This document shows positions 23,041 to 37,539 of a stretch of DNA of 64,000 nucleotides, piece by piece. The stretch lies in contig CAKOTF010000008.1 of NCBI GenBank assembly GCA_934120045.1, positions 15,534 to 79,533 of the forward strand, read 5' to 3'. Each line of letters starts with the position of its first letter. Position 1 is the first letter of the stretch. Made by a program: the position numbers and the translations under genes. Source of the DNA: an uncultured Clostridia bacterium (GTDB taxonomy: Bacteria > Bacillota > Clostridia > TANB77 > CAG-508). Below the pieces are notes generated by a model. It worked only from the letters and a program-made list of their open reading frames with translations, made no database searches and had not been told where the DNA came from.

Positions 23041-23143
23041 ACTAATTACCTCTCTTTTCTAATTGTATTTTAGCCTTTTTACTTTAGTTCTAAAGTTATA
23101 CATATAATATTTATTCTTATTTATGTATTTTAGAACAAATAAA

Positions 23144-23196
23144 GACTTTTAAAGAAAAAATATAATTAAATTATTATATCCTTTCTTTAAAAGTCT
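23144..23196 (-). terminator. 14-bp hairpin (gacttttaaagaaa/tttctttaaaagtc) downstream of tRNA-Glu, in the ATPase leader
   Basis: Inverted repeat read directly; U-rich on both sides. Confidence 0.4.
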
Positions 23197-23288: not shown

Positions 23289-23363
23289 TGGTGACCCGTA
23301 CGAGAATCGAACTCATGATTCCACCTTGAGAGGGTGGCGTCTTAGCCGCTTGACCAACGGGCC
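23289..23363 (-). tRNA. tRNA-Glu (anticodon CUC)
   Basis: Reverse complement reads GGCCCGTTGGTCAAGCGGCTAAGACGCCACCCTCTCAAGGTGGAATCATGAGTTCGATTCTCGTACGGGTCACCA. The backbone is close to Firmicute tRNA-Glu and the anticodon loop is CTCTCAA. Confidence 0.85.
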
Positions 23364-23439
23364 ATATTTATAATACTTATTATTTATATCATATTTATTT
23401 TAATTCGTCAATTGTTTTTTACATTTTTCATCAACAATA

Positions 23440-23486
23440 AAAAAGATACCACAAATCATCATTACAATAATTTGTAGTATCTTTTT
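23440..23486 (-). terminator. rho-independent terminator of the HNH gene
   Basis: aaaaagatacCacaaat...atttgtaGtatcttttt, a 17-bp stem with one mismatch, then a U-run on the minus strand. Confidence 0.55.
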
Positions 23487-23487
23487 G

Positions 23488-24180
23488 TTAAAATATAACT
23501 TCTACATTTTCAAGAACAATTGCCGGTATTTCCTTTATCCGATTGTTCCTGGCATAAAGAACAACTGTAAAACCATCAAGAACAAAATTATTTTTATCAA
23601 CAATTATTGGCTTAGGAAACTTACCACATCTAGTATAATATTCATTTATTTTCTTATACTTATTTGTAGTTGTATCTGGCAAATCAATTGTTATAATTAG
23701 ACTTGATACTGGAATTCTACTGATCCATTCTTTTGGTAACATATGTAACCATCTTATTTGGAACATTTTAATTTTAAAGTATTCTCTTTTAAATTGTTCT
23801 TTTGCACCATCATCTTTTAAGCTCATATAAACTCTAAACTGATCAGGTGTCATATTTTCCTTCTCTTCATTACATTTCTTGCAAGAAGGTACCATATTTT
23901 GTGGAATTGTTGGTCCTCCAAGACCTTTAGCATAAACATGGTCTAAAGTTATCTGACTGGGTTCAACAACTCTTCCGCAATAATAGCATTTTCTTTTTCC
24001 TTTCAGTTTATAAGTTAAATCATACATTATATACTCAAATTTAAATGGCCGTTTTTTCAATTTTAACATTGAGTTTTCTTCAAATGCGATAATATCTTTT
24101 TTGGCTGAAAATGTATAACCTTTTGGAACTTCGATAATCATCAAAAGCCCTCCTTCATTTTTAGTTACATAATATAACAA
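23488..24180 (-). CDS. HNH endonuclease fused to a ParB/Srx-like C-terminal domain
   Basis: CYYCGR...LDHVYAKGLGGPT...NMVPSCKKCNEEK is an HNH/zinc-finger motif. The C-terminus ...KPIIVDKNNFVLDGFTVVLYARNNRIKEIPAIVLE is ParB-N-like. The start may be the internal MIIEVPKG. Confidence 0.55.
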   Translation of the reverse strand: MLYYVTKNEGGLLMIIEVPKGYTFSAKKDIIAFEENSMLKLKKRPFKFEYIMYDLTYKLKGKRKCYYCGRVVEPSQITLDHVYAKGLGGPTIPQNMVPSCKKCNEEKENMTPDQFRVYMSLKDDGAKEQFKREYFKIKMFQIRWLHMLPKEWISRIPVSSLIITIDLPDTTTNKYKKINEYYTRCGKFPKPIIVDKNNFVLDGFTVVLYARNNRIKEIPAIVLENVEVIF

Positions 24181-24208
24181 TATAACAAATTTCCAATTTT
24201 GTCAATAT

Positions 24209-28029: not shown

Positions 28030-28677
28030 CTATAATAATCGTGGTTTAAGCTCTAAATAAATTGGCTTTTCTTCTCTTATCATTGTACTTTTCCCATGTC
28101 CTGGATATACAATTGTTTCATCTGGTAATACCATTAATTTTTTGGTAATTGAATTTATTACATCTTCAAAATTTCCTGTTGGTACATCTGTTCTTCCCCA
28201 AGTTCCTCTAAATAATGTATCTCCTGAAAATAATAATTTTTCTTCTTCACAATATAAGCAAGAACCTCCTGAAGTATGTCCTGGTGTGTGTATTACTCTA
28301 AATTCAAGATTTCCTAAATGTATTAAGTCTCCATCATCAACTCTTGAATCAACTTGAATAACTAATCCTTCAAGTCCTATATATGTTGTTAAACTTATAT
28401 TAGGGTCTAATAAATTTTCTGCTGTATTTCTATGTGCTAATATTTTTCCACCTTTTCTTTCTTTTAATTCTTTTACTCCTCCAATATGATCTCCATGACA
28501 ATGTGTTAAATAAATATATTTTAAATTTGCATTTAATATATCTAACATTTCTACAATTTTGTCAACATCTCCTGCAGGATCTATTACCATTGTTTCTTTT
28601 GATTTCTCGTCTTGTACAATATAACAATTTGTTACATCTCCAACCCATGAGTCTATCCTTAGTTCCTTTAATATCAT
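28030..28677 (-). CDS. MBL-fold metallo-hydrolase (glyoxalase II-like)
   Basis: THCHGDHIGG motif; 215 aa. Confidence 0.7.
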   Translation of the reverse strand: MILKELRIDSWVGDVTNCYIVQDEKSKETMVIDPAGDVDKIVEMLDILNANLKYIYLTHCHGDHIGGVKELKERKGGKILAHRNTAENLLDPNISLTTYIGLEGLVIQVDSRVDDGDLIHLGNLEFRVIHTPGHTSGGSCLYCEEEKLLFSGDTLFRGTWGRTDVPTGNFEDVINSITKKLMVLPDETIVYPGHGKSTMIREEKPIYLELKPRLL

Positions 28678-37152: not shown

Positions 37153-37539
37153 CTATTGAGGAGCTCCACCCTTTTTTATATTTCCTTTTTCATCAATAAC
37201 ATATACTCTGCTACTACTTGCTATTCTTATTGTAAATTCTTTTGTTCCTTCATTATACTCAAAAAAAGTAATATCAATATGTTCTTCTAAATGTTTTTTG
37301 AAATTTCTTTTTGCAAGTTTTCCATCATTACTTGAAATTAATGTTTCCTGAATTGCAATCATTATAGCTTCTTTTTCTTCTTTTAATTCAACTGCACTTT
37401 TTACATCATGTGCTTGATCTAATGTTTTATCTTGTCCTGTTAAAGATGATAATGAAACTCCTGCAAGAATCATTATTACAACTATTGTCGTTGCAAGTGC
37501 TATTAGAGTTACTCCGTTTTTGTTTTTTATGAATTTCAT
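37153..37539 (-). CDS. pilin/pseudopilin-like protein with prepilin-type N-terminal hydrophobic segment
   Basis: MKFIKNKNGVTLIALATTIVVIMILAGVSL resembles a class III signal but lacks the Glu at +5. Confidence 0.4.
   Translation of the reverse strand: MKFIKNKNGVTLIALATTIVVIMILAGVSLSSLTGQDKTLDQAHDVKSAVELKEEKEAIMIAIQETLISSNDGKLAKRNFKKHLEEHIDITFFEYNEGTKEFTIRIASSSRVYVIDEKGNIKKGGAPQ

What the first reader, a model, noticed from the sequence alone, without database searches (positions are those of the whole stretch)
23289..24180. Orphan HNH+ParB-like nuclease gene sandwiched between sporulation genes and a lone tRNA-Glu(CUC)
The 230-aa product combines a zinc-finger HNH motif (CYYCGR...LDHVY...NMVPSCKKCNEEK) with a C-terminal ParB/Srx-like segment (KPIIVDKNNFVLDGFTVVLYARNNRIKEIPAIV). 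It has its own strong terminator and sits directly upstream of a single tRNA gene. Standalone HNH-ParB fusions are poorly characterised; they could be homing or mobile nucleases, restriction-like defence proteins or DNA-processing factors. tRNA adjacency is typical of mobile or defence cargo.
Basis: partly seen in the sequence, partly recalled or inferred. Interest (0 to 1): 0.5.

Follow-up and report, generated by a model that had tools for sequence, protein, structure and literature searches.

The report
Solitary HNH–ParB-fold nuclease gene cassette
A small stand-alone gene in a very common uncultured human-gut Clostridia bacterium encodes an apparently active DNA-cutting enzyme (HNH) fused to a degenerate ParB-like domain; it belongs to a narrow uncharacterised family, and the gene with its promoter and terminator has been swapped and moved as one unit between close relatives.

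Summary
The gene is window 23488-24141 (minus strand) and encodes 217 aa from an ATG, not 230 aa. It has its own sigma-70-type promoter, a strong RBS and a 20-bp-stem terminator. tRNA-Glu(CTC) lies downstream.

The family is small and closed: about 300 representatives among 1.84 billion, always about 215-240 aa. It occurs only in low-GC, small-genome uncultured gut Clostridia and has no full-length copy in the phage or plasmid collections.

It sits in at least seven housekeeping or sporulation contexts. The tRNA travels with the neighbouring Ca-ATPase, not with this gene.

Two signals are unusual:
- A cassette-bounded allele dimorphism: about 77% nucleotide identity inside 96-98.5% identical flanks, dS about 0.9 against about 0.1, dN/dS about 0.2.
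- A family-wide excess of third-position GC: 0.25 against 0.15 in neighbours.

Best reading, at moderate confidence: a solitary restriction-like conflict nuclease. Rivals are a clade-specific repair nuclease and a homing-like selfish gene.

The parts
23488..24141 (-). CDS of the 217-aa HNH-ParB-fold protein (stop codon 23488-23490)
   Evidence: ORF. The ATG start is fixed by the homologue alignment (M1 and P6 invariant). The exact protein is recorded in 13,118 blocks of the public assembly index.
24001..24141 (-). Residues 1-47: N-terminal three-stranded sheet plus helix that precedes the HNH core
   Evidence: AF2 secondary structure: E10-13, E16-22, E25-29, H35-47. This is a variable region, mean column entropy 2.16.
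23848..24000 (-). Residues 48-98: HNH (beta-beta-alpha-metal) nuclease core with a Cys4 zinc site (C52, C55, C87, C90) and the catalytic set D67-H68, N82, N91
23746..23847 (-). Residues 99-132: helical linker, the most variable segment
   Evidence: AF2 helices 99-107 and 111-131. Mean entropy is 2.85 with no column >=90% conserved. Identity between the two allele classes here is 59%.
23491..23745 (-). Residues 133-217: divergent ParB/sulfiredoxin-fold domain (LPxEW, KYKK, PKPIIVD, LDGF, AK, IPxIVLENVEV). The GxxR P-motif is absent.
24177..24205 (-). Own sigma-70-type promoter: TTGACA, 17 nt, TATTGT
   Evidence: Scan gives 10 of 12 matches. A comparable TTGAN-N16-19-TAnnnT promoter lies within 120 nt upstream in 48 of 80 related loci. 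The -35 box travels with the gene into other contexts.
24148..24153 (-). Ribosome-binding site GGAGGG, 6 nt before the ATG
   Evidence: Read directly from the sequence. GGAGG is enriched upstream in the family.
23440..23486 (-). Intrinsic terminator (20-pair stem, then a T-run)
   Evidence: It also appears as inverted repeat I14.
23425..24200 (-). The exchangeable cassette: the stretch from just after the -35 box to the end of the terminator. It is about 77% identical to sister lineages whose flanks are 96-98.5% identical.
   Evidence: 60-nt identity profile, boundary alignments and per-segment identities. dS is 0.83-0.94 inside against 0.03-0.20 outside.
23289..23363 (-). tRNA-Glu(CTC): an adjacent gene with its own promoter (about 23380-23420). 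This is context only, not part of the cassette.
   Evidence: The tRNA with its promoter stays upstream of the Ca-ATPase in contexts A and B, whichever side the HNH gene is on.

Best explanation
The gene encodes a solitary DNA endonuclease that appears to be constitutively expressed. The catalytic module is a zinc-stabilised HNH (His-Me finger) domain with the Cas9/McrA-type D-H...N...N set. It should use one divalent metal ion to nick or cut DNA.

The C-terminal half is a ParB/sulfiredoxin-fold domain that has lost the GxxR phosphate-binding motif. It most likely does not act as an NTP switch. I infer that it serves as the DNA-docking and/or dimerisation module that positions the HNH site. I also infer that two protomers could make a double-strand break.

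The promoter, RBS, ORF and terminator form a self-contained cassette on the chromosome of a clade of uncultured, low-GC, small-genome gut Clostridia.

I commit to this reading: it is a restriction-like 'conflict' nuclease that discriminates foreign or abnormal DNA from the host chromosome without a partner methyltransferase. That is the logic of type IV enzymes and GmrSD, built here in a much smaller, differently ordered architecture. Different lineages keep deeply diverged alleles that are exchanged as whole cassettes.

Shown here: domain identities, intact catalytic residues, cassette anatomy, distribution, allele replacement, relocation and purifying selection.

Inferred: DNA as the substrate, the role of the ParB-fold domain, and the defence-like biological role.
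For: - The HNH domain scores above Pfam cut-offs and is closest to a characterised nicking HNH, 4h9d.
- C52, C55, D67, H68, N82, C87, C90 and N91 are invariant.
- The C-terminal domain has a ParB/Srx fold with PHROG ParB-like hits.
- G190 is never followed by Arg at +3 in any aligned member. GxxR is the motif whose R-to-A mutants serve as the negative control for NTP binding in ParB-fold proteins (PMC12704722).
- The gene has its own promoter, RBS and terminator.
- No conserved partner gene appears across at least 7 contexts.
- The allele island is bounded by the cassette: about 77% against 96-98.5% nucleotide identity, dS 0.83-0.94 against 0.03-0.20, dN/dS about 0.2.
- The cassette alone is relocated within an otherwise collinear tRNA, Ca-ATPase, Prx, g159, FtsY block.
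- Extra paralogues occur: a tandem pair 50% identical in L064, and two loci in one MAG.
- The gene uses atypical, rarer G/C-ending codons in 70 of 72 loci (GC3 0.252 against 0.146, with GC1 and GC2 unchanged). This would fit throttling of a potentially toxic nuclease, or frequent gene conversion.
- The combination of a ParB/Srx fold with an HNH nuclease is the make-up of GmrSD type IV enzymes (PMC4619093).
Against: - No biochemical data exist.
- The gene was found in every sampled relative and no empty site was seen. It is flanked by core genes rather than defence islands or mobile elements. That distribution is more typical of a core gene than of a defence gene.
- PADLOC gives only HNH-level similarity (PDC-M01B, PtuB) and no match to any system with this architecture.
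- There are no DUF262 or DUF1524 hits.
- The HNH phylogeny largely follows the context groups, so inheritance is mostly vertical.
- dN/dS is like that of the neighbouring genes in distant comparisons.
- The divergence between alleles is spread over all domains rather than concentrated in a putative specificity region.
Confidence: 0.38

Rival explanations
1. It is a clade-specific housekeeping nuclease for DNA repair, recombination or chromosome processing. One possibility is a structure-specific nickase or resolvase of the endonuclease VII or HlpB kind, with the ParB-fold domain tethering it to DNA. The divergent allele would then be an ordinary recombinational import.
For: - It is present in all 88 species-level genomes detected, essentially one copy each, and always full length with invariant catalytic residues.
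- The exact protein is fixed in a very prevalent species: 13,118 index blocks, always in the same context.
- It is flanked by core genes (RelA, RecA, NrdDG, MurT, SigE, AddA).
- It has a housekeeping-type promoter.
- dN/dS is 0.13-0.20, similar to its neighbours.
- It is absent from phages and plasmids.
- There are weak profile and fold hits to endonuclease VII (phrog_1035 at 7e-9; BFVD).
- One sub-clade places it next to addA.
Against: - The replaced segment coincides exactly with the promoter-to-terminator cassette at both ends.
- The cassette alone moves within collinear neighbourhoods.
- Tandem and second paralogues exist.
- Synonymous-site composition differs from every neighbouring core gene, including ribosomal-protein genes.
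- The family is confined to one narrow clade.
- No NCBIfam equivalog was found.
Confidence: 0.3
2. It is a free-standing, homing-like selfish endonuclease gene. The enzyme cuts at or near the locus in genomes carrying a different allele or no copy. Repair from an incoming copy then converts the site. This would explain cassette-precise replacement, hops to adjacent intergenic sites, and GC3 raised by biased gene conversion.
For: - The cassette is autonomous, with sharp replacement boundaries.
- Its position differs on either side of one neighbouring gene: the tRNA plus Ca-ATPase unit in contexts A and B, and sigE in context D against L059.
- Rearrangement breakpoints coincide with the cassette ends in L005, L006 and L008.
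- GC3 is elevated uniformly along the gene.
Against: - No empty target site was found, though the sample was small.
- There is one copy per genome, and none in phages, plasmids, introns or inteins.
- Long-term purifying selection and invariant catalytic residues across about 80 species argue against the gain, fixation and decay cycle expected of homing genes.
- No NUMOD or IENR1-type DNA-binding modules were found.
- The phylogeny is largely vertical.
Confidence: 0.17
3. It is a remnant of a prophage packaging module (a cos-site HNH working with terminase), or the toxin of a toxin-antitoxin pair.
For: The closest solved relative, Gme HNH (4h9d), and many PHROG hits belong to phage HNH proteins. 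ParB-like nickases sit near terminases in some prophages (PMC3592412).
Against: - No terminase, portal, integrase or other phage gene lies near it in any context.
- No conserved small adjacent ORF could serve as an antitoxin.
- No phage carries the two-domain architecture.
- The gene is under purifying selection across the clade.
Confidence: 0.04

Closest known systems
GmrSD / BrxU / SspE-type type IV restriction enzymes (DUF262 ParB/Srx-fold NTPase plus DUF1524 HNH-like nuclease)
   Different: - The domain order is reversed here (HNH first, ParB fold last).
- The protein is 217 aa rather than about 600.
- There are no DUF262 or DUF1524 hits and no GmrSD-type hit in PADLOC.
- The NTP-binding motif is absent.
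- The gene is not in defence islands or mobile regions.
ParB-CTPase-fold proteins fused to HNH domains, reported as uncharacterised 'novel fusions' in bacteria (PNAS 2025, PMC12704722)
   Same: Both combine the ParB fold with PF01844 HNH in a bacterial chromosomal protein of unknown function.
   Different: That survey was seeded on Pfam PF02195. This family is not recognised by PF02195 even at E<=10 and lacks GxxR, so it probably lies outside that set. The architecture and function of those fusions were not described in the text read.
Small phage and prophage HNH nicking endonucleases (Gme HNH 4H9D, GVE2 HNH 5H0O, HK97 gp74 class)
   Different: Those are single-domain proteins of about 100-120 aa encoded next to terminase genes. 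This one is twice as long, carries a ParB-fold domain and has no phage neighbours.
EcoKMcrA / TagI / ScoMcrA modification-dependent HNH restriction enzymes
   Different: Their sensor domains (5mC-binding, SRA, sulfur-binding) are N-terminal and unrelated to the ParB fold.
Free-standing HNH homing endonucleases (I-HmuI; T4 Mob family)
   Same: They are autonomous gene cassettes lying between conserved genes, with HNH at the N-terminus and a DNA-binding region at the C-terminus.
Bacillus subtilis HlpB (YisB), a stand-alone HNH-like protein linked genetically to AddAB
   Same: It is a stand-alone chromosomal HNH protein in a Firmicute (title cited in PMC12704722). One sub-clade here places the gene beside addA.
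   Different: That paper could not be read and no sequence comparison was made. From memory, HlpB is a short single-domain HNH protein; this was not checked here.

Membership tests
HNH / His-Me finger endonucleases (Pfam PF01844, PF14279) | Profile match above the curated threshold | tested here: met
   HNH_5 scores 42.5 bits (cut-off 27.5) and HNH 35.5 bits (cut-off 21.4), at residues 52-103.
HNH / His-Me finger endonucleases (Pfam PF01844, PF14279) | Catalytic His (general base) with a preceding Asp, a structural Asn and a metal-ligand Asn/His; two CxxC pairs binding zinc | tested here: met
   D67-H68, N82, N91, C52/C55 and C87/C90 are invariant in 36 aligned members and >=90% conserved in 79.
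HNH / His-Me finger endonucleases (Pfam PF01844, PF14279) | Beta-beta-alpha-metal fold | tested here: met
HNH / His-Me finger endonucleases (Pfam PF01844, PF14279) | Metal-dependent nuclease activity | not testable with these tools
   Needs purified protein.
ParB/Srx (ParB-CTPase fold) superfamily | The fold itself | tested here: met
ParB/Srx (ParB-CTPase fold) superfamily | Sequence-profile membership (Pfam PF02195 ParBc) | tested here: not met
   None of 24 C-terminal domains gives a hit even at E<=10. Only PHROG ParB-like profiles match: phrog_26377 in 19 of 24 members, best E 5.9e-8.
ParB/Srx (ParB-CTPase fold) superfamily | P-motif GxxR (Box II), which binds the NTP phosphates | tested here: not met
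   The motif reads L-D-G190-F-x-[VLAEQMSI], and no aligned member has Arg at G+3. The importance of GxxR comes from PMC12704722.
Canonical ParB / Spo0J / Noc / KorB DNA clamps | HTH DNA-binding domain and a C-terminal dimerisation domain following the N-terminal fold | tested here: not met
   The protein ends at the last strand of the ParB fold (residue 217). No HTH was found by Pfam or in the model.
GmrSD-family type IV restriction enzymes | N-terminal DUF262 (with a DGQQR-type NTPase motif) followed by C-terminal DUF1524 | tested here: not met
   No DUF262 or DUF1524 hit. No GmrSD-type hit in PADLOC. The domain order is reversed and the motif is absent.
GmrSD-family type IV restriction enzymes | Modification-dependent cleavage | not testable with these tools
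   Needs assays on modified DNA.
Free-standing homing endonuclease genes | Presence/absence polymorphism with a cleavable empty target site | tested here: inconclusive
   No yunB-to-tRNA junction lacking the gene was found. All 3 metagenome contigs carrying the tRNA promoter have the gene. That collection holds very few contigs of this organism.
Free-standing homing endonuclease genes | Residence in phage genomes, introns or inteins, and multi-site spread | tested here: not met
   No full-length copy in INPHARED, IMG/VR, BFVD or PLSDB. The gene is single-copy and chromosomal.
Septu PtuB / PDC-M01B defence nucleases | Adjacent partner ATPase (PtuA / M01A) and a full-length profile match | tested here: not met
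   Matches cover only the HNH region, with E 6e-8 to 6e-3. There is no ATPase neighbour in any context.
IscB / Cas9 RNA-guided nucleases | NCBIfam score above the cut-off; RuvC domain; guide RNA | tested here: not met
   38.4 bits against a cut-off of 375 (Cas9d), and 30.5 against 175 (IscB), both over the HNH region only. No RNA family other than the tRNA lies nearby.
tRNA-targeted integrative element (genomic island) | Integrase, insertion at the tRNA 3' end, and a direct repeat of the tRNA end | tested here: not met
   The gene lies 5' of the tRNA. There is no integrase and no tRNA-derived repeat. The tRNA stays with the Ca-ATPase in other contexts.

The most novel reading that the evidence does not exclude
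The cassette would be a chromosomal, free-standing nuclease gene that promotes its own allelic replacement and short-range relocation. This would amount to homing-like gene drive between closely related gut bacteria. Its family-wide GC3 excess would be the footprint of repeated break-induced, GC-biased gene conversion. The ParB-fold domain would be a new kind of sequence-recognition module for an HNH enzyme.
Probability: 0.15. Interest if true: 0.75.

Novelty: new variant of a known kind. Interest (0 to 1): 0.45.

Why it matters
Both domains are familiar. This compact HNH-then-ParB-fold architecture is not captured by Pfam ParBc, NCBIfam or PADLOC, and it has no characterised member.

It is carried by one of the more prevalent uncultured lineages of the human gut: the exact protein is recorded in more than 13,000 assembly blocks.

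If it is a restriction-like enzyme, it is a minimal single-protein DNA discrimination system. It would also be a likely barrier to genetic manipulation and gene flow in a clade nobody has yet cultured.

If it is a homing-like element, it would be a rare example of nuclease-driven allele replacement in bacterial chromosomes.

It is also a natural example of a ParB fold that has lost its nucleotide switch, which bears on current work on how far that fold has diversified.

The cassette-bounded allele dimorphism and the synonymous-site anomaly are concrete population-genetic signals that can be tested with existing metagenomes.

Tried and rejected
- The 230-aa TTG start was rejected in favour of the ATG at 24141.
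- The tRNA-linked island idea was rejected.
- An adjacent methyltransferase or partner was sought. None is conserved in any context, and no DPPY/NPPY or PCQ motifs occur in the window's ORFs. That motif check was a crude regex.
- Sporulation control was considered because of the SpoIIP/SipL/YunB, SpoIIGA/SigE and SpoIID neighbours. It was rejected because the gene carries its own sigma-70-type promoter in most loci, and the contexts also include NrdDG, MurT and tRNA synthetases.
- A sulfiredoxin function was considered because Srx is a top fold hit and a peroxiredoxin lies nearby. It was rejected because there is no catalytic Cys or GCHR motif, and Prx adjacency occurs only in contexts A and B.
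- A guide RNA or other structured RNA was sought. Nothing but the tRNA was found.
- A conserved parS-like or operator motif around the cassette was sought. Only promoter, RBS and terminator k-mers are enriched.
- Flanking repeats or target-site duplications were sought. None was found.
- A 'recent selective sweep' was considered because the cassette is 100% identical in five contigs whose flanks differ by 1-3%. I do not claim it. Four of those contigs were retrieved by exact protein identity, and other carriers differ by 2.3%, in line with their flanks.
- Acquisition from a GC-richer donor as the cause of the high GC3 is not supported, because GC1 and GC2 equal those of the neighbours.
- High-expression codon bias is not supported, because ribosomal-protein and rpoA genes have GC3 <=0.13.
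The HlpB paper is not held.
Full report
**What is there**

The minus strand of window 23488-24180 holds an ORF. All 118 database homologues and 80 genomic homologues begin at the equivalent of the ATG at 24141 (MII[E/D][L/V]P, with M1 and P6 invariant). GGAGGG lies 6 nt upstream. The product is therefore 217 aa, not 230.

A sigma-70-type promoter (TTGACA, 17 nt, TATTGT; 24205-24177) precedes the gene. A 20-pair hairpin with a T-run (23486-23440) follows it. tRNA-Glu(CTC) lies at 23289-23363.

The upstream genes are SpoIIP, SipL+LysM and Spore_YunB. Downstream, after the tRNA, come a P-type Ca-ATPase and a 1-Cys peroxiredoxin.

The window has 26.7% GC and is otherwise a run of core genes, including RecA, RelA, MutL, ribosomal proteins and spoIIIA-like genes.

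**Domains**

Residues 52-103 match Pfam HNH_5 and HNH above their gathering cut-offs. The closest solved protein is the Geobacter Gme HNH nicking endonuclease, 4h9d (E 8e-11). C52, C55, D67, H68, N82, C87, C90 and N91 are invariant. This is the Cys4 zinc site plus the Cas9/McrA-type D-H...N...N catalytic set, so the nuclease is very probably active.

Foldseek against viral models finds single-domain HNH or ParB/Srx proteins but nothing that spans both domains.

At the sequence level the ParB assignment is weak but reproducible. Of 24 C-terminal domains, 19 hit the PHROG 'ParB-like' family phrog_26377 (best E 5.9e-8). Others hit ParB-like nuclease and ParB-methyltransferase families. Pfam ParBc is not hit at all.

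The Box II/P-motif GxxR is missing. In ParB-fold proteins, R-to-A mutants of this motif serve as the NTP-binding negative control (PMC12704722). Here the motif reads LDG-F-x-[hydrophobic/acidic] in every member.

**Family and distribution**

A profile of the C-terminal domain, searched against 1.84 billion cluster representatives, finds only 294 proteins at E<=1e-3, and 122 at E<=1e-10. Nearly all are 210-240 aa with the domain at the C-terminus. The short ones look like fragments, and the few long ones match only a repetitive DG..A..N stretch. The architecture is therefore fixed and the family is small.

In one-genome-per-species GTDB contigs, 88 loci were found. All are in uncultured gut 'Clostridia' or 'Clostridium sp. 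CAG' MAGs. The window matches MAG UBA10678. From memory, and not tested here, this is the TANB77/CAG-508-type lineage.

No full-length copy exists in INPHARED phages, IMG/VR, BFVD or PLSDB plasmids. The exact window protein is indexed in 13,118 assembly blocks, including contigs of 1.49-1.62 Mb. The host is thus a very prevalent small-genome gut organism, and the gene is fixed in it in the same context.

**Context**

I called ORFs in all loci and clustered them. This shows at least seven recurrent contexts:
- A: SpoIIP, SipL, YunB, HNH, tRNA-Glu, Ca-ATPase (the window).
- B: tRNA-Glu, Ca-ATPase, HNH, then Prx on the opposite strand.
- C: NrdD, NrdG, HNH, then MurT/GatD on the opposite strand (Pfam confirmation).
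- D: FtsZ, SpoIIGA, HNH, SigE.
- E: radical-SAM protein, HNH, then an M23 peptidase on the opposite strand.
- F: SpoIID, M23 peptidase, PAP2 on the opposite strand, HNH, DUF3006, AddA.
- G: radical SAM/SPASM, HMUDK_hel, HNH, Ca-ATPase.

None contains integrases, transposases, phage genes, methyltransferases or a conserved partner.

The tRNA-Glu gene with its promoter accompanies the Ca-ATPase in both A and B. The HNH gene lies on the tRNA's 5' side, and there are no tRNA-derived repeats. The tRNA adjacency is therefore incidental.

Between A and B the block tRNA, Ca-ATPase, Prx, g159, FtsY, UPF0182 is collinear, and only the HNH cassette changes sides. Context D and locus L059 show the same behaviour around sigE.

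Most loci (48 of 80) carry a recognisable TTGAN-N16-19-TAnnnT promoter within 120 nt, plus GGAGG. The -35 box moves with the gene into different contexts. The unit is promoter, RBS, ORF and terminator together.

**Allele replacement**

Against the sister-species loci L005, L006 and L007, nucleotide identity is 95-100% on both sides. It falls to 65-85% from just after the -35 box to the end of the terminator. It returns to 97-100% at the tRNA promoter.

Per segment, the cassette is 77-79% identical, against 95.6-98.5% for Ca-ATPase, YunB, SipL, the MBL gene and RelA. SpoIIP is 92.8-96.8%. Carriers of the window-type allele are no closer in the flanks (97-99%) than carriers of the other allele.

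dS is 0.83-0.94 in the HNH gene and 0.03-0.20 in the flanking genes, with dN/dS about 0.2. This is an old, functional, diverged allele placed in a near-identical background, not fast positive selection.

The sister alleles are 85-94% identical to each other and track the Ca-ATPase tree. The window's allele is the outlier, and its donor is unsampled: the next best database hit is 73% identical.

L005 and L006 lose synteny exactly at the 3' end of the cassette, and L008 exactly at the 5' end.

I do not claim a sweep. The 100%-identical cassettes were mostly retrieved by exact-protein look-up, and other carriers differ by 2.3%, like their flanks.

Family-wide, the protein tree mostly follows the context groups, so inheritance is largely vertical with occasional relocation, duplication and replacement. 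The duplications are a tandem pair 50% identical in L064 and two loci in one MAG.

**Synonymous-site anomaly**

The HNH gene has GC3 of 0.197, against 0.075-0.114 for its neighbours. It ranks third of 53 window ORFs and lies above all ribosomal-protein genes.

Across the family, GC3 is 0.252 against 0.146 for neighbours, while GC1 (0.394 against 0.399) and GC2 (0.291 against 0.295) do not differ. HNH exceeds the neighbour mean in 70 of 72 loci and is the highest gene in the locus in 67% of them. The excess is uniform along the gene.

A GC-richer donor would also have shifted positions 1 and 2. High-expression bias is excluded by the ribosomal-protein genes. The remaining candidates are GC-biased gene conversion at a recombination-prone locus, or selection for rare codons that limits the dose of a dangerous enzyme. 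This remains unexplained.

**Interpretation**

The molecular identity is secure: an active-looking HNH endonuclease with a degenerate ParB-fold domain. The biological role is inferred.

Several features are not those of an ordinary housekeeping gene:
- cassette autonomy;
- exact-boundary allele replacement;
- relocation within collinear neighbourhoods;
- occasional paralogues;
- odd codon composition.

They point to a DNA-conflict function. I favour a solitary restriction-like nuclease (confidence about 0.38). It works like GmrSD or McrA-type enzymes in that a second domain selects the DNA for an HNH cutter and no methyltransferase is needed. It is not a member of those families, because the defining domains, their order and their motifs were tested and not met.

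Some features fit a clade-specific repair or recombination nuclease (about 0.30):
- presence in every sampled relative;
- core-gene surroundings;
- absence from mobile elements;
- mostly vertical descent;
- purifying selection.

A homing-like selfish cassette explains the mobility and perhaps the GC3 excess. It fits poorly with universal presence and long-term conservation (about 0.17). A prophage or toxin remnant is essentially excluded (about 0.04).

**Limits**
- The empty-site searches sampled a collection that holds only three contigs of this locus.
- Genome-wide absence and copy number could not be assessed in MAGs.
- ORF calling in related loci was a simple ATG-longest-ORF procedure.
- The afdb50 library was unavailable.

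Noticed in passing
L080, L081 and L083 (about 2-3 kb upstream of the HNH homologue at 8001 / 3999): In the most distant sub-clade (30% identity), the genes just upstream are a radical-SAM/SPASM protein and a protein matching Pfam PF18723 '5-hmdU DNA kinase, helical domain' (E 6e-109). PF18723 belongs to thymidine-hypermodification pathways. This may hint that DNA modification and this nuclease are linked in some lineages.
   Followed up: partly
window 23581-23670 (residues 158-187 of the protein): The stretch KYKKINEYYTRCGKFPKPIIVDKNNFVL resembles RSV non-structural protein NS2 (KYKKYTEYNTKYGTFPMPIFINHDGFL). Pfam RSV_NS2 gives E 0.0025, below its cut-off, and is hit by 6 of 24 members. PDB 7ldk gives E 0.003 with the domain profile. 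This is probably chance.
   Followed up: partly
L064 7263-8681: Two tandem copies of the HNH-ParB-fold gene, 50% identical to each other, lie directly upstream of an AddA-like helicase-nuclease gene. Another MAG (CAOJQV01) has two unlinked copies that are 35% identical (L032, L054).
   Followed up: partly
L005 and L006 from about 8660 onward; L008 before about 7930: Synteny with the window breaks exactly at the ends of the HNH cassette. In L005 and L006 an unannotated 208-210-aa gene with no Pfam hit replaces tRNA-Glu and the Ca-ATPase. In L008 an Amidase_3 gene replaces YunB upstream.
   Followed up: partly
window 37153-37539 (-): A 128-aa ORF has a type IV prepilin-like N-terminus (MKFIKNKNGVTLIALATTIVVIMILAGV...). 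A paper on the uncultured gut clade TANB77 highlights a conserved pilin (PMC11680825, title only). Not compared.
   Followed up: no
window 60257-60568, 60811-61185 and 61380-61733 (-): Three neighbouring small ORFs (103-124 aa) encode Asn-rich proteins. The first two have the highest GC3 in the window (0.39 and 0.31, against a median of 0.10). Their identity is unknown.
   Followed up: no
window 1064-2476 (-), near tRNA-Leu 3192-3275: A 470-aa ORF with elevated GC3 (0.174) lies close to the only other tRNA in the window. Not annotated here; it could belong to a mobile or recombinase-type element.
   Followed up: no
window 28030-28677 (-): The 215-aa metallo-beta-lactamase-fold gene next to relA carries precomputed Pfam hits to PF23023 (Anti-Pycsar_Apyc1) as well as Lactamase_B. 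The relA-MBL pair is conserved in contexts A and C.
   Followed up: no
window 23143-23196: A near-perfect inverted repeat (24-nt arms, 92% complementary, 6-nt loop) lies between tRNA-Glu and the Ca-ATPase start. It is presumably the tRNA terminator or a leader element of the ATPase.
   Followed up: no
L005-L007, L009 and L010, upstream of the HNH start: In these alleles the promoter spacer contains AAAGCCC, and the RBS region contains its complement GGGCTTT about 45 nt downstream. The pair is present in both contexts A and B but absent from the window's allele. Significance unknown.
   Followed up: no
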